DNA from: Naegleria gruberi
Lineage: Eukaryota
DNA length: 64,000 bases
NCBI GenBank assembly: GCA_000004985.1
Contig: GG738871.1
Direction: 5' to 3' (one strand)
Positions 3,120 through 37,017 of this stretch are shown here, piece after piece; positions within the stretch are counted from its first letter, which is position 1; each line of letters begins with the position of its first letter. The position numbers and the translations under genes are program-made. The notes below the pieces were generated by a model. That model ran no database searches and had not been told where the DNA came from. It saw nothing but the letters and a program-made list of their open reading frames with translations.

Positions 3120-4577
3120 ATGCAAACATCAAGCACACCTCTGATAGTCAGTAAAATCGCTTGTATTGGTGCCGGGTACGTCGGTGGACCAACAATGACA
3201 GTCATTGCCAACAAATGTCATGATATTCAAGTTGTCATCTATGACATGAATCAACACAGAATTGATGAATGGAATAGTGATCATTTGCCAATCTATGAAC
3301 CTGGCTTGGAAGAATTAGTATTCGAAAGAAGAGGTAAAAATCTTCATTTTACAACTGATTATGCTCAAGTTGTTGATGCTGACATTATTTTCCTTTCGGT
3401 TAACACACCAACTAAATATTATGGTGTTGGAAAGGGTAGAGCAGCTGATTTAAAGTATATTGAATCATGTGCTAGACAATTGAGAGATACTATTAAATCA
3501 GGAAGAAAGATTATTGTTGAAAAGTCAACTGTACCAATTAGAACATCAATTGCTGTAAAGAGAATTTTGGAGAGTGGTGACAGTCAAGCTCAATTTGATA
3601 TCTTGTCTAATCCAGAGTTTCTTGCTGAAGGAACTGCTATTTCCGATTTGAATGCTCCTGATAGAGTTTTAATTGGTGGTGAATCTGATTATGCTATTCA
3701 AGCATTGTCAAGTGTTTATGCCAGATGGGTTCCAAAGGAAAATATCATTACTACTAATTTGTGGTCTAGTGAATTGAGTAAATTGGTTGCTAATTGCATG
3801 CTTGCTCAAAGAATTTCATCAATGAATGCCATTTCTGCATTGTGTGAAAAGACTGGTGCTGATGTTCAACAAGTTTCATATGCAGTTGGTAAGGATACAA
3901 GAATTGGTGCTAAATTCTTGCAAGCTTCTGTTGGTTTTGGTGGAAGTTGTTTCCAAAAGGACATTTTGAATTTAGTTTACTTGGCAGAACATTACAATTT
4001 ACCAGAAGTTGCCAAATACTTTTATGGAATTATTGAAATTAACGATTATCAAAGAGATAGATTTGCCAAGAAGGTCATTCACAAGTTATTTAACACTGTT
4101 TCAAATAAGAAGATTTGTATCTTGGGTTTTGCCTTCAAGAAGAATACATCAGACACTAGAGAATCATCAACCATTTACATTTGTAAATCATTGTTGGAAG
4201 AAAGAGCTCAAATTTGTATCTATGATCCAAAAGTTACTGAAAATCAAATGAGATACGATTTGAAGAGTTTGATGAATGATTCCTATGGAGGTGATTTCAG
4301 TGCCATTTCTGAAACTTCACCAGAAAGTGAACTCGTCTCTAAGAATGTCAAAGTCTTCTCTGATCCATATGAAGCCATGGCTGATGCTCATGCTATTCTC
4401 GTTTTAACTGAATGGGATGAATTCAAGACTTATGATTATCAGCGTGTCTTTGATTCCATGAAGAAACCAGCTAATTTGTTTGATGGTAGAAATATTCTCG
4501 ATAGAGAACAATTGGAACAAATTGGATTTGAAGTTTATCAAATTGGTAAACAAGAAAAGAATCTTGCCGATTGGTAA
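3120..4577 (+). CDS. UGDH: UDP-glucose 6-dehydrogenase
   Basis: A 485-aa single-exon ORF. It has the N-terminal Rossmann motif [13 protein letters not shown], the catalytic region [10 protein letters not shown] and full-length collinearity with UGDH. Confidence 0.92.
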
Positions 4578-4655
4578 TTTCTCAATAAATTATAATTTTA
4601 TACTCAAGAATTATTTCAAAATTTTACAAAATTGGAAATTCCAGAATTGGCAAAA

Positions 4656-5072
4656 TTATTTACGCTTGTAAACGTCAACCTTTCTATTCTTTTTGTGATG
4701 TTTTCTATTCTTTCTATTCTTTCTGTTCTTTCTGTTCTTTCTATTCTTCTTTCCATAAGTATCAATTCTTCTCTTCTTGTTACTTCTCTTCTTCTTTCCA
4801 TAAACGTCAATCTTCTTTCTGATAATTCTCTTCTTTCCATGTCTCTTCAAACCTCTTCTCTTTCCATAGGTATCCAAATACTTGTTGAGTTTTCTGTGAT
4901 TTCTTCTCTTTTTGTGATTTTTAACTCGTTTGAGCTTTCTTTGCTTGTTATTGGTTTTGGCAATGTACAAGGACATGGTTTCTGCTTCCTCTGCTTGAAC
5001 ATTGGAAGTCATGGACAAGGCAATGATAGCCAAGGTTAAGGCAATTAATAGAATTGAAACGAATCTTTTCAT
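4656..5072 (-). CDS. Secreted, extremely basic repeat protein. Signal peptide, short acidic pro-region, then K/R-rich repeats of D(T/V)YGK(K/R)n and (KNR)n.
   Basis: A 138-aa ORF. The N-terminus MKRFVSILLIALTLAIIALSMTSNVQA is a classic signal peptide. The remainder is over 55% Lys/Arg with repeated DTYGK/DVYGK units and KNRKNRKNRKNRK. The DNA shows the matching (TTCTNTTC)n microsatellite at about 4683-4760. Confidence 0.55.
   Translation of the reverse strand: MKRFVSILLIALTLAIIALSMTSNVQAEEAETMSLYIAKTNNKQRKLKRVKNHKKRRNHRKLNKYLDTYGKRRGLKRHGKKRIIRKKIDVYGKKKRSNKKRRIDTYGKKNRKNRKNRKNRKNRKHHKKNRKVDVYKRK
4683..4760. repeat. Imperfect (TTCTATTC/TTCTGTTC)n microsatellite inside the basic-protein CDS. 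It encodes the KNRKNR tract on the minus strand.
   Basis: Direct reading shows ttctattctttctattctttctgttctttctgttctttctattcttc. Confidence 0.8.
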
Positions 5073-5307
5073 TTTTTGTTTTGAGAAGTTTGTTATTATT
5101 GATGTTTTGAATTTATACCTTTCGAATGGGTTTTTGAAATTAGTTCTTAATCTTTTTTGGAAAGAAAGCAGACGAGTGAATTAAACATTTTCAGAGTATG
5201 TATTGGTTAAAGATATGGATTTAAAAGAGCAATGCATAATATTGTATAAAATCAAGTTCAAAGAAAGAACTCTAAGATTTATCAAAAATTGCAAGTTGCA
5301 AAATTCC

Positions 5308-6555
5308 TTATTTCCCTTCTTCTATGTTTCTAAAAATGCAACATTTAACAATCATGGAATAGAGTGCTACTTTGTGTGCGTGTTTGATATCTGAATTTGT
5401 TGTTTCCACATAGAGTGCACCATCCATAATATCAAAGGCCACTTTCTGAGCTTGCTCCTTATTAACACGTCTTCCATTGATGAGATCTGTCTTATTTCCA
5501 ATAAGGACCACTTCACTATGGTGAGCGTCATAATTCTTTAATTCATTATACCACAATGGGATGTGTTCGAAACTAGTCTCATTGGTCAAATCGAATAATA
5601 GAAAGACAACATGAACATTTCGGTAATGCATCCTAGTTAGAGGAGTAAATCTCTCTGGACCATAAACATCCCATATCTGAAAGTCATATCTTTTATCCTG
5701 TGAAAATTGATAAGTCTTACTGAAGAAATTTGATCCAATCGTTGGAATATCCACATATTTTCCAAAAGTCTTATTGAAAATGATACAATTAATAAAAGAT
5801 GTCTTTCCTGAAAAACTGTCTCCACTCATGGAACATTTGAAAGAGTACTGATCATTTCCAAACTTTTGAGGCGTATAAGGATATAGACTTTTCGAAGGAT
5901 TTGAACTCTGTGTTGATTGACCACTCGGTGCTCCAAAATATGAACCCAAAAATTGAAATATTCCTTTAAAAACTGAATTTCCACATGTAGAGCTTGATTT
6001 CTCTTCCTTCTTTGTTTCAACATTCTCCTTCTTTTCATTCGAATGCTCGTCCTTCTTCTTCAAATCTGAAAAGTTTGAAAAGTATCGAGTGATCAATTCC
6101 AATTCACTCATCAATTGTTTTACAATTTTTTCATCCAAATCACCATTAACATTGGCCAAGTCAATAACTCCAGGAATATCCAACTTCTCTAAATTAGCTT
6201 CAATCCATCGATCAGCCACTTGATAAATGAATTTTCTCAACATTGTTTTTCTGAATTTTCTATTAGAATGGAGAAAATCATCATCATCATGATCGGAATT
6301 AATTTTCTCTACTATTTCATTATGATCTGATTTAGTGGATGATTTAAAGGGTGAGGAATTGGATGATTCATATGAATTGAAAGTAAATTCTAGTTCATAT
6401 TGTTTTGTAATAATTGGCAAGATTAACCTTCGCCAAGATTTACAAACATTTGAGTGGGAAAATATTAAATCTACAGATGGCAGATAGGAAAAAATTTCGT
6501 TATTAATTTCCTCTGGTAAAATTTCAAAGAGGTTATGTACTTTGTTAATGATCAT
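5308..6555 (-). CDS. F-box domain protein fused to a C-terminal Ras-superfamily (Rab/Ras-like) GTPase domain
   Basis: The N-terminal LPEEINNEIFSYLPSVDLIFSHSNVCKSWRRLI is an F-box. The C-terminus carries G1 GDSFSGKT, a G3-like WDVYGPE (canonical DTAGQE with Gln replaced by Pro) and G4 GNKTD. Confidence 0.65.
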   Translation of the reverse strand: MIINKVHNLFEILPEEINNEIFSYLPSVDLIFSHSNVCKSWRRLILPIITKQYELEFTFNSYESSNSSPFKSSTKSDHNEIVEKINSDHDDDDFLHSNRKFRKTMLRKFIYQVADRWIEANLEKLDIPGVIDLANVNGDLDEKIVKQLMSELELITRYFSNFSDLKKKDEHSNEKKENVETKKEEKSSSTCGNSVFKGIFQFLGSYFGAPSGQSTQSSNPSKSLYPYTPQKFGNDQYSFKCSMSGDSFSGKTSFINCIIFNKTFGKYVDIPTIGSNFFSKTYQFSQDKRYDFQIWDVYGPERFTPLTRMHYRNVHVVFLLFDLTNETSFEHIPLWYNELKNYDAHHSEVVLIGNKTDLINGRRVNKEQAQKVAFDIMDGALYVETTNSDIKHAHKVALYSMIVKCCIFRNIEEGK

Positions 6556-6623: not shown

Positions 6624-7490
6624 ATGAATAGAGTCATCATTCGATTGTATGATTTTTTAGACTACTCCAACGAAACATCAAATCCATGCCACTACTATTA
6701 TACAATGCTAACTGATAAATTAAGGGAGAAAATTCCCTCCTACCACATTGTCCGCTCCCTGCAAGATATTAAACATGAATTAATTTCATATTCACCATCA
6801 ATGGGACAATTAATATACAATAATATTTTGGAACGTTATTTTAATAATAGAAGTAACATGGATCCACAGAAGAAATCGATGAGATTTTCCTCCATTCAAA
6901 GCCATGCATTTGGAATTTTATTTAATAATCGACATGTTGATATCATGAAGCATGATTTGATACTATTCTCGTTCAATGGAACGGGAAAGACGTGGCTTAC
7001 TTGTTTGTATTGTTTGCAACAAATATTGGCGGGAAAAGTTAGGAGAGTCATTGTAGTTTGTCCAATATTGGAATATTGTCATCAATATGAAGAAAACTTA
7101 AAGACAATGATTGGATCTACTACTGATTCACAAGATGTTTTCTCATTCAAAATATTGAATAGTGCAACAGAAACGAAGGAATCAACGAAACATGTTAATA
7201 TTATCATTAGTAGTTTATCGAGATTGTTGGGATTCATTAGAAGAGGAATTATTGATACAACAGATGTGGATTTAGTTATTGTGGATGATTTCGAATATTC
7301 AAAATCGTTGAATTCATTGCAAGATTTCAAATATTTCTTTTCAAGATTTAACAACGCAAGAGCGATTGTTTCAACTGAAGGTGATAAGAAGATAATTCCA
7401 CCAGTATTGAATAATCCTGCAATACTTTGTAGTATTCCTTTCAGTAATGAAAGTTATTACAATTACATCAATTTTGTTGGAAATCATTGA
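6624..7490 (+). CDS. Degenerate DEAD-box helicase N-domain-like protein (RecA-like domain 1 only)
   Basis: Motif I-like FNGTGKT, Ia-like VVCPILEY, a degenerate motif II VIVDDFEY and a SAT-like STEG. There is no helicase C-domain. The assignment is tentative. Confidence 0.35.
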   Translation: MNRVIIRLYDFLDYSNETSNPCHYYYTMLTDKLREKIPSYHIVRSLQDIKHELISYSPSMGQLIYNNILERYFNNRSNMDPQKKSMRFSSIQSHAFGILFNNRHVDIMKHDLILFSFNGTGKTWLTCLYCLQQILAGKVRRVIVVCPILEYCHQYEENLKTMIGSTTDSQDVFSFKILNSATETKESTKHVNIIISSLSRLLGFIRRGIIDTTDVDLVIVDDFEYSKSLNSLQDFKYFFSRFNNARAIVSTEGDKKIIPPVLNNPAILCSIPFSNESYYNYINFVGNH

Positions 7491-15566: not shown

Positions 15567-15647
15567 GCAGGGGTTCCCGAGTGGTCAAAGGGGGTAGACT
15601 CAAGTTCTACTGCGCAAGCTTCGTGGGTTCAAATCTCACCTTCTGCA
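15567..15647 (+). tRNA. tRNA-Leu (anticodon CAA), type II with a long variable arm
   Basis: Hand-folded. Acceptor GCAGGGG/CTTCTGC with 2 G-T pairs. Anticodon stem GTAGA/TCTAC with loop CTCAAGT. T-arm GTGGG-TTCAAAT-CTCAC. Discriminator A. Followed by GCTTTT (Pol III terminator). Confidence 0.9.
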
Positions 15648-19553: not shown

Positions 19554-19607
19554 ATCCAAGCTCTGCAAATAAAGAAATCTGTGAATAATATGGCAAACAA
19601 AACTATC

Positions 19608-19679
19608 CTCCCATGCCGGGAATTGAACCCGGACCTCCTGGGTGAAAGCCAGGTATCCTAGCCATTGGACTACACGGGA
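19608..19679 (-). tRNA. tRNA-Glu (anticodon TTC)
   Basis: The reverse complement reads TCCCGTG TA GTCC AATGGCTA GGAT A CCTGG CTTTCAC CCAGG AGGT CCGGG TTCAATT CCCGG CATGGGA G. All stems pair. It closely resembles eukaryotic tRNA-Glu. A T-run lies downstream on the minus strand. Confidence 0.9.
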
Positions 19680-20159
19680 ATATATTCAACAGGTAAATGT
19701 ACCCTTAATGGACTAAAAGGAAAATGCTGTGAGCAAAAAGATTGCTGCTCTACTTAGTTTTTTTTTCACTTAATGATTTAGACGGGAAGCCTGCCGGGAA
19801 TATGGCGACTGTCCCGCTACAGTCTTTGACTGTATGAACTGTGAGGTACGTCGTCTTTCGAGTCAGTAAGAGAGAGTGATTGGAGGAAGAGGCACTGAGT
19901 AAGTTTATTCATTGATTTTTAAATTGATCACCTAGATAAAAAGTATTTTGGTTAAAAAAATTCATAATTGCTTTGATCTCTATGTTTAACAAGTATTACA
20001 ATCGAATCTAAAGTTACAAGGAAAAGTTTCAGCCACGTTAAAACTCAACTGTTAAATTGATGAACATTGTCTAAACTTTATGAGATAGTCAACAATGAAA
20101 ATAAGCAATATTGGAATTCCACTGAAATGAAGATTATTTACATGTTAGTTTTTTAATAT

Positions 20160-21671: not shown

Positions 21672-22977
21672 ATGCTGATTTATTTGATACTTCCTGTAGC
21701 CTTGGCTGCGGTTGTCTTTTTCTACTTGAATTCCAACTCTAAACGTATGTTTTTAATCTCATCGTAGAAGAGAAAAATTAATCTTTTTGTCATCAATAGA
21801 TCAAAATGTTGTTATCAAGTCTGATTTATTAACAACAAAACCTGTTGCTCCAAAGAAGAAGGATGATAAGAAAAAGGTTGCCAAAGTTGTTCTTGCTGAG
21901 GATGATATTGTTGAAGCATCAAATGCCGAAATGACTGAAATTGATGTTGCCGAAATGTATGGATTAAACAAGAAGAAGAAGAAGCCTGTTGTTGAAGTTA
22001 CCAAGAAGAAGCCTGCTGCCAAGAAGGATACCAAGAAGCAACAACAACAACAAGCTCAACCTGAAACCACTGAAGGTGCTGAAGGTTTTCTCCTTGTTAA
22101 AAAGCCAGAATTAACTGGTCGTAAGAAGGAAGACAAGCCAAAGAAGGTTGAAAAGCCAAAGAAGAAGGATGAAAACAAGTCCATCTTTAGAAAGCTTGTT
22201 ACTGACGATTCTGCTAAACCTGCTGGTGAAAAGAAGGAAGAAGTCGAAGCTGAACCACAAGAAGAAAAGAAGACTGAAAAGAAGGATAAGAAGTCTGAAA
22301 AGGTTGAAAAATCTGAAGATAAGAAATCCGAAAAGAAGTCAAAGGAAGAAAAGAGTGGTAAGGACAAGAAGAAGGCTGAAACAAGTGCATCAGTCGATGA
22401 AACTGAAAGCCCAGTCACTCCTGTTGTTGTTGAAGAAAAGAAACCAGAAAGAAAGCCAGTCACTGTTGTCAAGGATCCATATGAAACTGTTGATGATTTC
22501 TGGGGTGATAATGTTAAACAAGTTCAACCAAAGCCTCCAAGAGAACCAAGAGAAAATAAGGAAAAGAAGGAACCAAGAGAACCAAGAGAACCAAAAGAAA
22601 ATAAGGAACCAAGAGAACAAAAGGAACCAAAGGAAAAGAAGGCTAGAGAACCAAGAGAACAAAAGGAACAAAGAGAACCAAAGAAGAAGGATATTGTTTT
22701 GACAAAGGAAAAGAAGGAACCAAAGGAACAAAAGGCCTCAGTTAAGATCTTTAACCAAGTTGAATCTTCTGCCACATGGAACATTGCCTCTTCTGAATCT
22801 CCAGTTTCTGCACCAGAATCTGGAAATTCTGACTTCCCAAAGTTTGGTGAAAAGGTTAAGAAGGTTAAGCCTGCTAAACAACCTGTTGCTTCATCATCAA
22901 CTGATGTTGCCACTCCAACTGAAGTTGTTGAATCAACTCCAACTGAGGAAGTTAAATCAGAAGAAGAACAACAATAA
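21672..22977 (+). CDS. Lys/Glu/Pro-rich low-complexity protein with an N-terminal hydrophobic signal-anchor exon. Exons 21672..21744 and 21800..22977.
   Basis: Exon 1 reads MLIYLILPVALAAVVFFYLNSNSK, followed by a GTATGT...AG 55-nt intron in phase 1. The frame continues into the 396-aa ORF, which contains (EPREPKENK)-type repeats and KKxEK tracts. Confidence 0.5.
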
Positions 22978-31996: not shown

Positions 31997-34900
31997 ATGA
32001 TGCCAAGATTTTCGGGTTGCACGCTATTAACATTGTTTTTCATTCAAAGTATTGTGTTAATAATACTTTTAACACAAACAACACCAGTTCTCTCATGGTC
32101 CTATAGTATGAGAACTGTAGCTTCAGCACCAGATACTATTACTCAAATTGTTGGTGGTAATCAATTTATTTATGCTGCCTTTGGTTCTGATAATATTGTT
32201 TATTATAACAGAAGTGATTCAACTCAAATTGATGTCGCTACCATGTTGGCTGCTACTAATACTAATGCTGGTTCTACTTTTAAATATGTCGCTTACCATG
32301 GTCAAACTTCTGGAGGAAATGATATCATTTCTGCTGGTACTGTTAGTGGCATCTTTGATAGTGTTGGATTGTATTCATGCGCTATTGATTCACAGAACCT
32401 TCCTGCCTCTTTGACGGCCTTTACTGGCACTTCTCCAACAAAATTATTTGGTGTGAGAGGAAAATCATCTAATTCTCCATCAGATCCTCAATTTTATCTC
32501 ATGACAGATCAAGGAATTATTGAAGCTGATTCATCTAGTTCTTCGCCTGTTGGCTCTGCTTCATTTAGTACTCAAGTTGACTTGGATTTTAATTCTTCCA
32601 TGGTAAGTTTATTTCTTCTAAAAACGTTGTGATAATCTAATACTTTGATAGATATTTTATTTGGATTCTTCTAGTAATCTTTGGTCGGGTTTGACTAGCA
32701 GTACTAAAGTTATTGGCAGCGGACTTAATTTACCAAGATCTTTGAGCTTTGTTGATACTTTTAATCAAGTAAGTGATGAAATAGTACTCATTTCTCTAAT
32801 TAAATTAGATTTTTATCTCTGATACTGGTAATGGTCGTGTTAAAGTTTTGGATCTATCCTCAAATCAAGTTACCACCATTGCCGGAGGTTCTTCAACTCT
32901 TCCACCAAATGACTTTACACTTGTTAGCTCACCAACTAACTATCAAATTACTCCTACTGGTATTTGGGTTGACAAGTCAAATGGATACGTATACATTGCC
33001 GATGGAGCATACATAAGAGTTCTCACACCAACTTGTAACACCATTTCTGAGGATGCCTCTTCTTCATATCCTTTCTGTGTCTGCAAATCAGGCTATATTC
33101 TCCAAGATGGGGTTTGTGTTGTTAACAACTGTTTGACATGTAACTCAAATCAAACTTGCGTATCAAATGCCTGTGTCTGTAAAAATGGTTATTCTGGAGC
33201 TTTATGTTCTGAATACAAGTGTTTTGGTACCCCTAAAGATAATGTTGGAGTATGTAGTAGTAGAGGTTATTGTACTGCACCAGATAATTGTATCTGTACT
33301 GACTCTATGAAATACTCAGGCGCTTCATGTAATGTTACTACCTGTAATTCCATCCCATCCTATCAATCTAATGTTTGTTCTGGAAAAGGTCAATGTACTG
33401 ATTATAACTTGTGTGTATGTACCAACACAACTGAATACGGAGGAGTAAATTGTGAATATTTCAAATGTAATGGACTCAATTCAAATGATGGAAACGTATG
33501 CAGTAAGAACGGCACTTGTGTTGGAATTAATTCATGTTCATGCAATTCAAATTATGCTGGTAACAACTGCCAGTACCCTAAGTGTAACGGAATCCCATCA
33601 ACTGATACTAATAATGTTTGTAATAAGAATGGTACCTGTGTTGCTGTTGATACCTGCAACTGTAATGTTAATTACACTGGTCAATTCTGTCAATATCCAA
33701 AATGTAATGGTACAGCTTCAAACGATGCAAGTGTTTGTAACTCCAATGGTGTTTGTAGTGGTGTTAATAATTGTGTCTGTAATTCAAATTATACTGGCCA
33801 ATACTGTCAATTCCCTAAGTGTAACGGAATTGGCTCAAATGATATTAATGTTTGCTCAAAGAACGGTACCTGTGTTGCTGTTAATACTTGTAATTGTAAT
33901 GTTAATTATACTGGACCATATTGTCAGTATCCAAAATGTAATGGCACGGCTTCAAATGATATTAATGTGTGCAGTAAGAATGGTAATTGTATCGCTCCAA
34001 ATGTTTGTTCATGTAATTCAAGCTTTTCTGGCCAATTCTGTCAATATCCAAAATGTAATGGAATCCCATCAACTGATACTAATAATGTTTGTAATAAGAA
34101 TGGTACCTGTGTTGCTGTTGATACCTGCAACTGTAATGTTAATTACACAGGTCAATTCTGTCAATATCCAAAGTGTAATGGTACAGCTTCAAATGATATT
34201 AATGTGTGCAGTAAGAATGGTAATTGTATCGCTCCAAATGTTTGTTCATGTAATTCAAGCTACACTGGTCAATTCTGTCAATATCCAAAATGTAATGGCA
34301 TTCCATCAAACGATGCTAGTGTTTGTAATTCAAATGGTACCTGTATTGGTGTTAATACTTGTAATTGTAATGCTAATTATACTGGTCAATTCTGTCAATA
34401 TCCAAAATGTAATGGTACTAGCTTCTAATGATACTAATGTTTGCAGTAAGAAGGTGGTAATTGTATTGCACCAAATGTTTGTTCATGTAATTCAAGCTAC
34501 ACTGGACAATTCTGTCAATTCCCAAAGTGTAATGGTATTGGATCCAATGATGGAAGTGTTTGTAATGCAAATGGTACTTGTATTGGAATTAACATTTGTT
34601 CTTGCAATTCGAATTATGCTGGACAATTCTGTCAATATCCAAAATGTAATAGTATTGCTTCGAATAGTGGCAGTGTTTGTAATTCACAAGGATCATGTGT
34701 TGCACCAAATGTTTGTGTCTGTAATTCAAATTATACTGGCACTTATTGTGACAAACCAAGATGTGGCATCTATTATAAGGGTGATGCTTCTGCTTGTAAT
34801 TCGAGAGGTAGTTGTGATGCTGTTGATAGTTGTACTTGTAGTGATACATCTTCTTGGGGTGGCAATTTGTGTCAATATCCAAAATGTAATGCTGTTCTTT

Positions 34901-37017
34901 CAAATGTTGGAACTGTTTGTAGCAGTAGAGGAACTTGTCAATCTCCAAACAATTGTTCATGCACTGATCCAAGTTCATATGGTGGTTCATATTGTGAAAA
35001 AGCAAAATGTTATGGAATTCTTCAAGGAGATTCAAATGTTTGCAGTGGGCATGGTACTTGCAGTGGTGTGAATCAATGTTCATGCAGTGCTGGATATGGA
35101 GGTGAACAATGTCAATATCCAAAATGTTTCACTATTTTGAGTAATGAAACAACAGTTTGTAACAATAGAAACGGTACATGTACTGCACCTGATACTTGTT
35201 CATGTAACAACGGATGGACTGGAAGCAAGTGTGATGTTGCCATTTGTTTTTCAATTCTCTCCAATTCAACAAAGGTTTGTTCAAACAAGAGAGGTAGTTG
35301 TGTCACACCAGATAATTGTGTTTGTAAAAGTCAATATTCAGGTTCTCAATGTGAATATACCACTTGTTCTGGAATAAGATCAGATCAAACATCGACAGTA
35401 TGTTATGGAAATGGTCAATGTATTGATTATAATACTTGTAATTGTACAACTGGTTATGGACCATCCAATGTATGTCAATATCCAATTTGTGGTGGCTATT
35501 TGGCAAATGATACAAGAGTTTGTAACAATTCAAGAGGTGTATGTTTGAGACCAAATGAATGTAGACCATTAGATCCCGTATGTTATGGTAAAGCTCAGAA
35601 TAATTCAATGGTTTGTAGTGGACATGGTTCATGTATCGATTGGGATTATTGTGAATGTAAAACTGGTTTCAATGGAAATGAATGTCAAAATTGGGAATGT
35701 TATGGAAAGAATTATACCAACTCAAATGTTTGTAACAATGGAAATGGTACCTGCTCATCTGTGAATAATTGTGTTTGTAACAGTGGATGGTATGGAAATG
35801 AATGTACAGTTCCAATGTGTAATGGAATTCTTGCAAATTCATCCCTAGTTTGTAACAATGGAAATGGTACCTGCTCCAAACCAGGTGCATGCCAATGTAA
35901 TACTGGATACACAGGATCTGACTGTTCCATTCCAATTTGTTATGGCAAATTAGGCACTGATACAAGTAATGTTTGTTCAGGAAGAGCAGACTGTATTGGT
36001 TATAACAAGTGTAATTGTGACACTTCCAAGTATAGTGGTTCACAATGTGAATATTTCAAATGTTTTGGTATTCCGTCAAATGATGCTTCAGTTTGCAGCA
36101 GAAACGGAACATGTTCAGGTGTGAATCAATGTTCTTGTAATTATGGTTATGGTTCTTCAAATTGTGACATTTTCACATGTTCAAATGTTCTTGCCACCAA
36201 TTCAAGTGTTTGCAGTGGAAAGGGTGTATGTTATGGAATTGACAAGTGTTCATGTGATTCAGGATATTTTGGATCAAATTGTGAAATTATCTCCTGTTAT
36301 GGAATTCCAAAGTCCAACAATACTGTATGTGGTGGAGTTGGTGAATGTTCACAACTTGATACATGTGTTTGTGGAAGCGGTTATAGAGGCTCAATGTGTG
36401 AATTATCTTACACCTCTTCATCTCAAGCAACACTTCAATTCAACAATACGAATGAATATGTGAATGAACAATTCACAAGCATGGTCACTTTGACAATTAA
36501 TAATCCACTCTTCGGCCAATATTATTTGAGAAGAAGTGTTCAAGTTGTTGTTTCATTTGAAATTAATTCACAATTCAGTTATTCTGAAACACTTTATATT
36601 GAAAATGGAGTTTCATCTGTTTCATTAATGGTGAAATCGTTGAGTCAAACTGGTACATTGAAAGCATCTGCTCAATTAATTGATAATAGCACATTGATTT
36701 CCATTTCAGATAGTATTCAATCTTCAAATAGCATTACAATTCAAAATAGACCTATTGTTGTTCCATCTACAAAGACATCCACAACCAAACCAACAACCTC
36801 TGCACAAACAAGTAGAGCTGTTATCGATACAGGAAGTAATGCAGGAGCCATTGCAGCTGGTGTTATTGTTCCAGTGGCAGTTATTGGAATTGGAGGTGGT
36901 GTCACTGCAGCCATTGTCACAGCAGTTGTTTTATTAAAGAAGAAGGCTGCTGCAGCTGCTGCCGCAGAAATTTCCCATGCTCAACACGTCAATGTTGAAC
37001 TTGTTGAAGGTTTCTAA
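31997..37017 (+). CDS. Large type-I membrane protein. Signal peptide, NHL-repeat region, about 38 tandem tenascin-type EGF modules, stalk, TM helix and a short poly-Ala/Lys tail. Exons 31997..32602, 32652..32768 and 32809..37017. There is an internal +1/+2 compensated frameshift at about 34420-34460.
   Basis: Signal peptide MMPRFSGCTLLTLFFIQSIVLIILLTQT. NHL-like ISDTGNGRVKVLD. The introns are GTAAGT..AG and were verified by hand. The EGF module is C.G..C....C.C...Y.G..C repeated. The C-terminus reads AGVIVPVAVIGIGGGVTAAIVTAVVLLKKKAAAAAAA. This is a paralog of the minus-strand gene at 10770..14504. Confidence 0.75.
33480..34560. repeat. Array of near-identical 93-nt EGF-module coding repeats. 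Stretches of about 89 nt are 100% identical, for example 33590-33678 and 34062-34150.
   Basis: Read directly. Long exact DNA repeats lie inside the CDS, consistent with recent duplication or gene conversion. This is a likely hotspot for assembly collapse. Confidence 0.8.

What the first reader, a model, noticed from the sequence alone, without database searches (positions are those of the whole stretch)
4656..5072. Secreted hyper-basic repeat peptide precursor encoded on a coding microsatellite
This 138-aa protein has a signal peptide and a short acidic pro-piece (EEAETMS). It then has about 100 residues that are over 55% Lys/Arg, organised as D(T/V)YGK(K/R)n units and a KNRKNRKNRKNRK tract. 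The tract is encoded by a (TTCTNTTC)n DNA repeat. The composition and organisation resemble precursors of multiple cationic antimicrobial or nucleic-acid-binding peptides, with the DxYG units as possible processing spacers. No ortholog is recognisable to me. The gene converges on the UGDH 3' end.
Basis: seen in the sequence. Interest (0 to 1): 0.55.

Follow-up and report, generated by a model that had tools for sequence, protein, structure and literature searches.

The report
Unannotated secreted polybasic repeat protein gene
This is a real but unannotated Naegleria gruberi gene from a small amoeba-specific family of secreted-looking, extremely positively charged, probably disordered repeat proteins, whose function (perhaps binding bacteria or other negatively charged material) is still untested.

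Summary
The window is Naegleria gruberi NEG-M DNA. The minus-strand ORF 4656..5072 (138 aa) exists as described and is very likely a real gene. It is missing from the public protein set. It has five annotated paralogues on other N. gruberi scaffolds and a few metagenome relatives. Its frame is under purifying selection (dN/dS 0.18-0.28). It is the only frame open at every locus with DNA. A TATA-like box sits about 45-55 nt upstream. The plus-strand ORF 4632..5039 is a by-product.

The protein has a conserved signal-peptide-like N-terminus (VxA|EE) and a short acidic piece. About 100 residues of predicted-disordered polycation follow (net charge about +45). This body is built from 45-bp-duplicated modules carrying [ILVF]DxY(G) cores and an in-frame 9-bp NRK microsatellite.

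The DNA repeat period is 9 bp, not 8. Homologues do exist. The DxY cores are the best-conserved part, not disposable spacers.

An exhaustive profile search of 1.84 billion proteins finds only this family, and there is no Pfam, PDB or Rfam match. Function is inferred only. My best guess is a secreted or vacuolar polyanion binder (antibacterial or prey-handling). Rivals are a Kex2-type multi-peptide precursor and an adhesive or cyst-matrix polycation. No expression data could be obtained.

The parts
4656..5072 (-). Complete single-exon CDS (138 codons plus TAA stop at 4656-4658) of an unannotated member of a Naegleria-restricted polybasic secreted-protein family
   Evidence: ORF list. The exact product is absent from the 15-billion-protein collection. 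Paralogues at E = 8.5e-38 to 1.1e-17. dN/dS is 0.18 against the L003 paralogue.
4992..5072 (-). Predicted cleavable signal peptide, aa 1-27 (MKR / FVSILLIALTLAIIALS / MTSNVQA), with a V-x-A cleavage motif before EE
   Evidence: Read from the sequence. The maximum 15-residue Kyte-Doolittle mean is 3.0. The V-x-(A/C/G) motif, followed by acidic residues in most members, is conserved across the family. No SignalP-type tool was available, so cleavage is inferred.
4959..4991 (-). Short acidic/hydrophobic pro-piece, aa 28-38 (EEAETMSLYIA; family consensus EExASTLSLYI)
   Evidence: Alignments A1 and A3.
4659..4958 (-). Polycationic body, aa 39-138: 52% K+R, 57% with His, 29 dibasic positions; predicted disordered over residues 70-138
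   Evidence: Composition. AlphaFold2 gives mean pLDDT 62.5 and pTM 0.26, with residues 70-138 mostly below 50.
4863..4877 (-). Module core 1: L-D-T-Y-G (aa 66-70), followed by KRR
   Evidence: Sequence. Unit list. Conserved in all N. gruberi paralogues.
4797..4811 (-). Module core 2: I-D-V-Y-G (aa 88-92), flanked by RKK and KKKR. It lies in the most conserved block of the family, GKKR(I/V)IRKKIDVYGKK
4752..4766 (-). Module core 3: I-D-T-Y-G (aa 103-107), flanked by KRR and KK
   Evidence: The Gly is replaced by Arg in paralogues P0004, P0006 and P0007.
4668..4679 (-). Module core 4: V-D-V-Y (aa 132-135), followed by the C-terminal KRK and stop. A VDxYK(R/K)K end is conserved in most members
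4702..4748 (-). In-frame 9-bp microsatellite (TTTCTRTTC on the + strand, AAY-AGA-AAG on the coding strand) encoding (NRK)5
   Evidence: TRF reports period 9, 5.2 copies, 94% matches. The tract length differs among paralogues: one to about 3.5 units in the other N. gruberi copies and many in L002.
4726..4835 (-). 45-bp (15-codon) tandem duplication, x2.5, that generated the K/R-spacer plus xDxYGKK modules
   Evidence: TRF reports period 45, 2.5 copies, 81% matches, score 130.
5112..5117 (-). TATAAA box 45 nt upstream of the ATG, followed by an A-rich leader (..caaaacaaaaaATG)
   Evidence: Upstream alignment. TATAAA lies at -43..-55 in 4 of 6 family loci, against a 1% background. The other two loci have TTTAAA at the same place.
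4632..5039 (+). Antisense 135-codon ORF: a non-coding by-product of the AAG/AGA/AAY-rich sense strand
   Evidence: The antisense open length varies from 69 to 139 codons among the six loci and is in different frames. The sense frame is open full-length in all six. No Pfam hit.

Best explanation
**What it is.** Window 4656..5072 (-) is a functional, intron-less, so far unannotated gene of Naegleria gruberi NEG-M. It belongs to a small lineage-restricted family. There are at least six copies on six scaffolds of this genome, plus a handful of environmental relatives.

**Architecture.** The family proteins are about 110-150 aa long. Each has an N-terminal signal peptide (cleavage predicted after V-x-A), a short acidic piece and a polycationic body of about 100 residues (net charge about +45). 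The distal two-thirds of that body is predicted to be disordered. The body is modular. Short [ILVF]-D-x-Y(-G) cores are embedded in K/R/N spacers. The modules arose by a 45-bp tandem duplication, and the spacers grow and shrink by slippage of an in-frame 9-bp NRK microsatellite.

**Proposed mechanism (inferred, not shown).** The positive n-region (MKR), the hydrophobic core and the conserved acidic residues just after it orient the chain N-in, so the basic body is translocated into the ER lumen. The protein is then delivered to food vacuoles or outside the cell. There it acts electrostatically as a polyvalent polycation on polyanionic targets, most plausibly bacterial prey envelopes (agglutination or permeabilisation), or nucleic acids or acidic polysaccharides. 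It may act intact or after cutting at some of its 29 dibasic sites. The Tyr-containing cores would serve as conserved contact motifs.

**Confidence by step.** Real protein-coding gene: about 0.93. Enters the secretory pathway: about 0.75. Polyanion-binding or antibacterial role: about 0.3.
For: **Organism and context.** The flanking UGDH and F-box Rab proteins are exact N. gruberi entries, EFC43802 and EFC43894.

**Family.**
- P0004, P0005, P0006 and P0007 match at E = 8.5e-38 to 1.1e-17.
- P0013 is another N. gruberi copy.
- Environmental members are L001-L005.
- An exhaustive HMM search of 1.84e9 proteins returns only 6 hits.

**Coding frame.**
- NG86 dN/dS is 0.18 (window vs L003), 0.28 (window vs L001) and 0.28 (L002 vs L004).
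- The sense frame is the only one open full-length in all six loci.

**Promoter-like element.** TATAAA lies at -43..-55 in 4 of 6 loci against a 1% background, and all loci have an A-rich leader.

**Codon bias.** AAG:AAA is 24:9 and GC3 is 0.43, against 0.25-0.29 in the neighbouring genes.

**Signal peptide.** The conserved h-region, the V-x-A motif and the acidic residues after it are seen.

**No fold or domain.** AlphaFold pTM is 0.26 with the distal two-thirds below pLDDT 50. Pfam gives nothing and PDB gives nothing.

**Modularity and repeats.**
Against: - No expression or protein evidence could be obtained. The product is not in any indexed assembly, the paralogue IDs appear in no searchable paper, and they are not in the supplements of the N. 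fowleri/N. gruberi comparative study.
- Signal-peptide cleavage was judged by rule only. The 17-residue h-region is long enough that an uncleaved type II anchor is possible.
- The acidic pro-piece (4-5 acidic residues) cannot neutralise about 50 positive charges, unlike typical cationic antimicrobial-peptide precursors.
- Nothing in the data ties the protein to bacteria, vacuoles or any particular polyanion.
- The strong conservation of the [ILVF]DxY cores is not explained by a purely electrostatic mechanism.
- No homologue was seen among predicted proteins of other Naegleria species, so the family may be young and dispensable.
Confidence: 0.45

Rival explanations
1. Multi-copy peptide precursor, similar to a Kex2-processed repeat protein or a prohormone. 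A kexin/furin-type convertase and a carboxypeptidase remove the K/R spacers in the Golgi and release several copies of a tiny conserved peptide, [ILVF]-D-x-Y(-Gly). That peptide is the active product, a signal or a metabolite precursor. The basic stretches serve only as cleavage sites.
For: - The formal KEP criteria are met: signal peptide, internal repeats, and KR/RR/KK between the repeats (definition from PMC6339444; features).
- The cores are the best-conserved, never-gapped elements (81-88% identity against 51-65% for spacers).
- Copy number varies from 1 to 5 among members, as in pheromone precursors.
- After trimming of C-terminal basic residues, every member except the gene-model fusion P0013, whose true C-terminus is unknown, would end in Tyr..VDxY or ..KY.
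- Three of the four units have the Y-G-(K/R)(K/R) form typical of amidation sites.
Against: - Spacers made only of K/R/N are unusual for such precursors. With 29 dibasic positions, 'sites between repeats' is trivially satisfied.
- The block around core 2 (GKKRIIRKKIDVYGKK) is conserved as a whole, not only the core.
- Distant members keep the polybasic body but only one core (L002, L004).
- The Gly is replaced by Arg in unit 3 of three paralogues and is absent from the last unit.
- The amidating enzyme PAM is reported absent from excavates (PMC6529398).
- The presence of a P-domain convertase in Naegleria was not established.
Confidence: 0.15
2. Extracellular structural or adhesive polycation. 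The Lys/Arg/Gly/Tyr-rich disordered protein forms a complex coacervate with acidic polysaccharides or other polyanions. It would contribute to substrate adhesion or to the cyst wall or plug matrix, with the Tyr residues available for cation-pi contacts or oxidative cross-linking.
For: - A signal peptide plus a predicted-disordered polycation with regularly spaced Tyr-Gly-Lys-Lys motifs.
- From my own knowledge, not tested here: this resembles the Y/G/K-rich repeat logic of marine adhesive proteins such as sandcastle-worm Pc-1 and mussel foot proteins, and the polybasic repeat units of diatom silaffins.
- Codon bias hints at high expression, as expected for a structural protein.
Against: - Tyr content is low (6 of 111 residues).
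- No stage-specific expression data are available.
- No acidic partner has been identified.
- The neighbouring UGDH is coincidental: the one paralogue-type locus with DNA (L003) has different neighbours.
Confidence: 0.12
3. Membrane-anchored variant. The N-terminal hydrophobic segment is an uncleaved type II signal anchor, so the polybasic body is displayed on the luminal or extracellular face of a membrane and is not released.
For: The h-region is 17 residues long (FVSILLIALTLAIIALS), at the upper end for signal peptides.
Against: A polar c-region of 6-7 residues with a conserved V-x-A (small residues at -3 and -1), followed by acidic residues in most members, is typical of cleaved signal peptides and is conserved even in distant members.
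Confidence: 0.1
4. Not a gene. The ORF is a by-product of a simple purine/pyrimidine-rich repeat, or the plus-strand ORF 4632..5039 is the real gene, or this copy is a dead paralogue.
For: - The locus is not annotated in the NEG-M gene set.
- Both strands are open across the repeat.
- There is no transcript evidence.
Against: - Six or more homologous loci keep only this frame open.
- dN/dS is 0.18-0.28.
- All indels between members are in frame.
- The upstream TATA-like box and leader are conserved.
- The antisense ORF is interrupted in the homologues.
- The ORF is intact from ATG to stop.
Confidence: 0.05

Closest known systems
Uncharacterised N. gruberi 'predicted proteins' D2VQW0 (NAEGRDRAFT_71365), D2VQ94 (_71069), D2VGK2 (_68008), D2VHX6 (_68479) and the N-terminal 135 aa of D2VKU9 (_50395)
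   Same: True homologues (60-66% identity over the full length for three of them). They share the signal peptide, the ASTLSLYI piece, the four [ILVF]DxY modules and the VDxYKRK end.
   Different: The window copy is not annotated. It has the longest NRK microsatellite tract (5 units) among the N. gruberi copies, and a slightly different pro-piece (EEAETMS against EEQASTLS).
Fungal Kex2-processed repeat proteins (KEPs), including the yeast alpha-factor precursor (PMC6339444)
   Same: Small secreted precursors with a signal peptide, a pro-piece and tandem copies of a short motif separated by KR/RR/KK. The copy number varies between homologues.
   Different: There is no sequence homology. KEP is a fungal class. 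Here the inter-repeat material is itself almost pure K/R/N and makes up most of the protein. The cores are only 4-5 residues long. Processing has not been shown, and the protease has not been identified in Naegleria.
Animal and algal amidated-peptide prohormones such as pro-TRH (own knowledge; PAM biology from PMC6529398)
   Same: Repeats of a tiny peptide followed by Gly and dibasic residues (x-Y-G-K/R-K/R).
   Different: The Gly is not conserved in every unit or paralogue. PAM is reported absent from excavates. There are no acidic spacers.
Polycationic host-defence and nucleic-acid-binding peptides, such as multi-peptide cationic AMP precursors, protamine-like and histatin-like proteins (own knowledge)
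   Same: Extreme K/R content, predicted disorder, and secretion via a signal peptide with an anionic pro-piece.
   Different: There is no homology. The anionic piece is far too short to neutralise the charge. There is no amphipathic or Cys-stabilised mature peptide. Activity is untested.
Secreted Lys/Gly/Tyr-rich adhesive or biomineral proteins, such as sandcastle-worm Pc-1, mussel foot proteins and diatom silaffins (own knowledge)
   Same: A signal peptide, a low-complexity polybasic repeat body, and YG(K/R)(K/R)-type motifs.
   Different: Tyr and Gly content is much lower. There is no Ser/phospho-Ser partner or silica biology in Naegleria. The resemblance is compositional only.

Membership tests
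Naegleria polybasic secreted-protein family (D2VQW0/D2VQ94/D2VGK2/D2VHX6/D2VKU9-N; unnamed) | Significant full-length sequence similarity to the other members | tested here: met
   phmmer E = 8.5e-38, 2.2e-37, 1.7e-24 and 1.1e-17, with 83-100% query coverage. The profile search recovers only family members.
Naegleria polybasic secreted-protein family (D2VQW0/D2VQ94/D2VGK2/D2VHX6/D2VKU9-N; unnamed) | Shared architecture: signal peptide with V-x-A, acidic/STLSLYI piece, [ILVF]DxY modules in K/R spacers, VDxYK(R/K)K C-terminus | tested here: met
   Alignments A1 and A3 and the unit table.
Kex2-processed repeat proteins (KEP class, PMC6339444) | N-terminal signal peptide | tested here: met
   Judged by rule only: n-, h- and c-regions, V-x-A at -3/-1, Kyte-Doolittle maximum 3.0. 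No SignalP run was possible.
Kex2-processed repeat proteins (KEP class, PMC6339444) | Internal repeats of a nearly identical short motif | tested here: met
   Four [ILVF]DxY units. The DNA shows a 45-bp tandem duplication, x2.5.
Kex2-processed repeat proteins (KEP class, PMC6339444) | KR/RR/KK cleavage sites between the repeats | tested here: met
   All units are flanked by dibasic residues, but trivially so: the mature part has 29 dibasic positions.
Kex2-processed repeat proteins (KEP class, PMC6339444) | Actual processing by a Kex2/furin-type convertase present in the organism (the class is defined in fungi) | not tested
   The literature searches did not establish a Naegleria convertase. 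Cleavage itself needs peptidomics.
PAM-dependent amidated peptide precursors | Conserved peptide-Gly-(K/R)(K/R) at every product copy | tested here: not met
   Gly follows Tyr in 3 of the 4 units here. It is Arg in unit 3 of P0004, P0006 and P0007, and is absent from the terminal unit in all members that keep it.
PAM-dependent amidated peptide precursors | Peptidylglycine alpha-amidating monooxygenase encoded by the organism | not tested
   A review states that excavates (Trypanosoma is named) lack PAM. Naegleria is not named (PMC6529398). The N. gruberi proteome could not be scanned with these tools.
Cationic antimicrobial peptide precursors | Demonstrated antimicrobial activity of the mature product(s) | not testable with these tools
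   This needs synthetic or recombinant peptide assays.
Cationic antimicrobial peptide precursors | Homology to, or structural signature of, a known AMP family | tested here: not met
   No Pfam family at E <= 0.1. No PDB relative: the best E-value is 0.19, to a designed coiled coil. The AlphaFold model has no confident fold.

The most novel reading that the evidence does not exclude
The family members are polyprotein precursors of a secreted tetrapeptide or pentapeptide signal, [ILVF]-D-x-Y(-G), cut out by dibasic processing. This would be a pheromone- or hormone-like peptide system in a heterolobosean amoeboflagellate, for example for density sensing, encystment or amoeba-to-flagellate signalling. 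It would extend Kex2-type repeat-peptide signalling beyond fungi, animals and green algae.
Probability: 0.1. Interest if true: 0.7.

Novelty: new variant of a known kind. Interest (0 to 1): 0.36.

Why it matters
The practical result is a missed gene in the N. gruberi NEG-M reference annotation, plus two probably mis-modelled paralogues. Together they define a compact, lineage-restricted family of secreted-looking hyper-basic repeat proteins that has never been characterised.

If the proteins are antibacterial or prey-binding polycations, they would be a new class of effector in a bacterivorous amoeba, separate from the saposin-like naegleriapores. If the conserved xDxY cores are released as peptides, that would be an independent example of repeat-peptide signalling outside fungi, animals and green algae.

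The locus also shows how an in-frame trinucleotide-multiple microsatellite (NRK) and a 15-codon duplication can build and resize a functional disordered protein. None of this rests on expression or biochemical data yet.

Tried and rejected
1. **DNA of the annotated N. gruberi paralogues.** It is not indexed, so the look-up of encoding contigs returned nothing for P0004-P0007 and P0013. I used environmental homologues with DNA instead.
2. **Transcript or assembly evidence for the exact window product.** None is on record.
3. **Literature on the paralogue locus tags.** Zero papers. The accessions are also absent from the supplements of PMC8296547.
4. **Widening the family.**
   - Viral contigs: no relatives.
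   - JGI metagenomes by signal-peptide pattern: no relatives.
   - A degenerate RRIDTYGKK DNA pattern: three hits, all chance matches with no ORF.
5. **Amidation (PAM) reading of Y-G-K-K.** I downgraded it because the Gly is not conserved and PAM is reported absent from excavates.
6. **Convertase in Naegleria.** The literature searches were uninformative. The 2026 preprint on cationic cell-penetrating peptides uses N. gruberi only as a target of animal peptides.
7. **Structure and database comparisons.** AlphaFold2 gave no fold worth a fold search. PDB, Pfam and Rfam gave nothing.
8. **Functional link to the neighbouring UGDH.** I rejected it. The paralogues lie on other scaffolds, and the L003 copy has different neighbours.
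9. **The plus-strand ORF as the real gene.** I rejected it.
Full report
**Source and context.** The window is Naegleria gruberi NEG-M DNA. The two ORFs flanking the finding are exact matches to N. gruberi entries on a 417,575-bp scaffold.
- UDP-glucose 6-dehydrogenase, 3120..4577 (+), is EFC43802 / D2VGZ5.
- The F-box Rab-family GTPase, 5308..6555 (-), is EFC43894 / D2VGZ7. Pfam confirms both assignments.

The target ORF lies in the 730-bp gap between these genes. It converges on UGDH with 78 bp between the two stop codons.

**Observation check.** The ORF listing returns the 138-aa minus-strand ORF at 4656..5072 with exactly the features described:
- a hydrophobic N-terminus, MKRFVSILLIALTLAIIALSMTSNVQA;
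- an acidic piece, EEAETMS;
- the units LDTYGKRR, IDVYGKKKR and IDTYGKK;
- a (NRK)5 tract and the end VDVYKRK.

Three details need correction.
- K+R is 46.8% of the 111 residues after the signal peptide and 52% of the last 100 residues. It reaches 57% only if His is counted.
- The microsatellite has a 9-bp period (TTTCTRTTC, i.e. the codons AAY-AGA-AAG), 5.2 copies and 94% matches, at 4702..4748. It is not an 8-bp unit.
- A separate 45-bp (15-codon) duplication, x2.5, at 4726..4835 explains the repeated xDxYGKK modules.

**Is it a gene?** The exact product is absent from the 15-billion-protein collection and from the gene-position index, so the locus is unannotated. A homology search nevertheless finds four annotated N. 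gruberi 'predicted proteins' on four other scaffolds. These are D2VQW0, D2VQ94, D2VGK2 and D2VHX6, at E = 8.5e-38 to 1.1e-17.

An exhaustive HMM search of 1.84 billion representative proteins returns only six hits. One of them is a fifth annotated N. gruberi paralogue, D2VKU9. Its first 135 residues or so are a family member with five units. I read the rest as a NOT2/3/5-like protein (not checked with a domain search), so this is probably a merged gene model. D2VHX6 has an unrelated N-terminus in place of the signal peptide, which is probably another modelling error.

A few environmental metagenome contigs carry relatives with DNA: L001 and L005, L002 and L004, and L003. L003 is a near-identical relative of D2VQW0.

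Using these, several lines of evidence support the minus-strand frame.
- Nei-Gojobori dN/dS in the minus-strand frame is 0.18 (window vs L003; pS 0.53, pN 0.15), 0.28 (window vs L001) and 0.28 (L002 vs L004).
- All indels between members are in frame.
- The sense frame is the only one open end to end in all six loci. The antisense frames are open for a variable 69-139 codons. The plus-strand ORF 4632..5039 is therefore a by-product of a sense strand made of AAG, AGA and AAY codons, whose complements contain no stops.
- Upstream, TATAAA lies 43-55 nt before the ATG in four of six loci, against a 1% background in this window. The other two loci have TTTAAA at the same place, and all six share an A-rich 'acaaa(a)caaa-ATG' leader.
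- Codon usage is biased towards AAG (24:9) and a higher GC3 (0.43 against 0.25-0.29 in the neighbours). This would fit a well-expressed gene, but that is an inference.
- Rfam finds nothing in the region.

I put the probability that this is a real protein-coding gene at about 0.93. The one missing element is direct transcript or protein evidence, which these tools could not supply.

**Anatomy of the protein.**
- *N-terminus.* It has a basic n-region (MKR), a 17-residue hydrophobic core and a polar c-region ending in V-x-A. In most members acidic residues follow directly. This pattern is conserved even in the most distant members, where the sequence is SVNA|SE. By the -3/-1 rule and the positive-inside rule (established knowledge), this predicts an N-in orientation, translocation of everything downstream and cleavage after Ala27. 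No dedicated predictor was available, and an uncleaved type II anchor is not excluded.
- *Pro-piece.* A short conserved piece follows, with family consensus EExASTLSLYI.
- *Basic body.* It is about 100 residues long with net charge about +45 and 29 dibasic positions.
- *Structure.* AlphaFold2 with the family alignment gives pTM 0.26 and pLDDT below 50 over most of residues 70-138, so there is no fold. Pfam and PDB sequence searches are empty.
- *Modules.* The body is modular. [ILVF]-D-x-Y cores, usually followed by Gly and always flanked by K/R, number four in most N. gruberi copies, five in D2VKU9, two in L001 and L005, and one in L002 and L004.
- *Conservation.* Among N. gruberi paralogues the cores are 81-88% identical to the window copy and are never gapped. 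The basic spacers are 51-65% identical and contain all the length variation.
- *NRK tract.* It is the most variable segment, and the window copy has the longest perfect run among the N. gruberi copies.
- *A possible sign of fast evolution.* Between two very close environmental copies (92% identity) there are 14 non-synonymous changes and 1 synonymous change, clustered in this distal basic region. That suggests slippage-driven or diversifying change, but the sample is tiny.

**How it most likely works.** What is shown is a selected, promoter-bearing gene that encodes a modular polycation with a signal-peptide-like N-terminus and no predicted fold. The rest is inferred. I think the protein enters the secretory pathway and acts in food vacuoles or outside the cell as a polyvalent polycation on polyanionic targets. 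For a bacterivorous amoeba, the most plausible targets are bacterial envelopes. The protein could act intact or after partial dibasic cleavage, with the conserved Tyr cores as contact motifs. I give this function about 0.3.

- *Main rival (0.15): a multi-peptide precursor.* The family formally meets the three KEP criteria of a signal peptide, internal repeats, and KR/RR/KK between the repeats (PMC6339444). The cores are the most conserved elements. After C-terminal trimming, every member with a known C-terminus would end in Tyr. Against this, the 'sites between repeats' criterion is trivially met in a protein that is half K/R. The flanks of core 2 are conserved as a block. Distant members keep the basic body but lose most cores.
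- *Amidation sub-hypothesis.* Y-G-K-K resembles a PAM site, but this reading is weak. The Gly is not conserved, and PAM is reported absent from excavates (PMC6529398). Whether Naegleria has a P-domain convertase could not be settled.
- *Adhesive or cyst-matrix role (0.12).* This rests on compositional analogy only.
- *Membrane-anchored topology (0.1) and 'not a gene' (0.05).* These are the remaining rivals.

It is partly supported. The gene call, the strand choice, the signal peptide, the repeat organisation and the coding microsatellite are all right. 'No ortholog' is wrong, because the family has at least six copies in this genome. The idea that the DxYG units are disposable processing spacers between cationic peptides runs against the conservation pattern. 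The antimicrobial or nucleic-acid-binding function remains untested.

**Comparison with known systems and novelty.** The only true relatives are uncharacterised 'predicted proteins' of N. gruberi and a few environmental sequences. Viral and JGI metagenome scans found none. Architecturally the family resembles fungal KEPs and alpha-factor precursors, TRH-type prohormones, polycationic host-defence peptides, and Lys/Gly/Tyr adhesive proteins or silaffins. It shares no homology with any of them and fails or leaves untested at least one defining feature of each (see the membership table).

I rate it a new variant of a known kind (secreted polybasic repeat proteins or peptide precursors). It lies in an orphan family restricted, as far as predicted proteins show, to N. 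gruberi-like amoebae. Interest is moderate to low (0.36). It is a solid annotation correction and a tidy example of repeat-driven protein evolution, but nothing yet shows an unusual mechanism. The most novel reading not excluded is a tetrapeptide signal precursor in a heterolobosean. I give it about 0.1.

Noticed in passing
window 22537..22685 (inside ORF 21787..22977, +): A second in-frame coding microsatellite: a 9-bp/36-bp period (CCAAGAGAA x17; 36-bp unit x4.2, 77% matches) encoding a Pro/Arg/Glu/Lys-rich tract. It gave weak compositional tblastn hits to the polybasic family.
   Followed up: no
window 33535..34683 (inside overlapping ORFs 32848..35071, +): A large tandem array (117-bp unit x9.6; 237-bp unit x4.7, 82% matches). 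By eye from the consensus unit it appears to encode Cys-rich, EGF-like modules, probably a surface or secreted repeat protein. I did not translate it.
   Followed up: no
window 15567..15647 (+) and 19607..19680 (-): Two tRNA genes: tRNA-Leu (CAA) and tRNA-Glu (TTC).
   Followed up: no
window 6624..7490 (+): A 288-aa ORF with DEAD/ResIII helicase-type Pfam hits whose exact sequence is not in the protein collection. The annotated N. gruberi model probably differs through introns or a longer CDS.
   Followed up: no
N. gruberi proteins D2VHX6 (P0007) and D2VKU9 (P0013): Both look like faulty public gene models. D2VHX6 replaces the family signal peptide with an unrelated N-terminus. D2VKU9 fuses a complete five-unit family member to what I read as a NOT2/3/5-like protein.
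   Followed up: partly
L001 110..601 and L005 127..621: The ENA gene calls P0008 and P0011 read through the true TAG stop as Gln and add a spurious 24-residue tail. The real ORFs end at ..VDFYKKK* and ..VDLYKKK*. This is a genetic-code artefact of the metagenome gene caller.
   Followed up: yes
L001 vs L005, C-terminal basic tract: Two copies that are 92% identical differ by 14 non-synonymous changes and only 1 synonymous change, clustered in the distal basic repeat. This suggests slippage-driven or diversifying evolution of that tract.
   Followed up: partly
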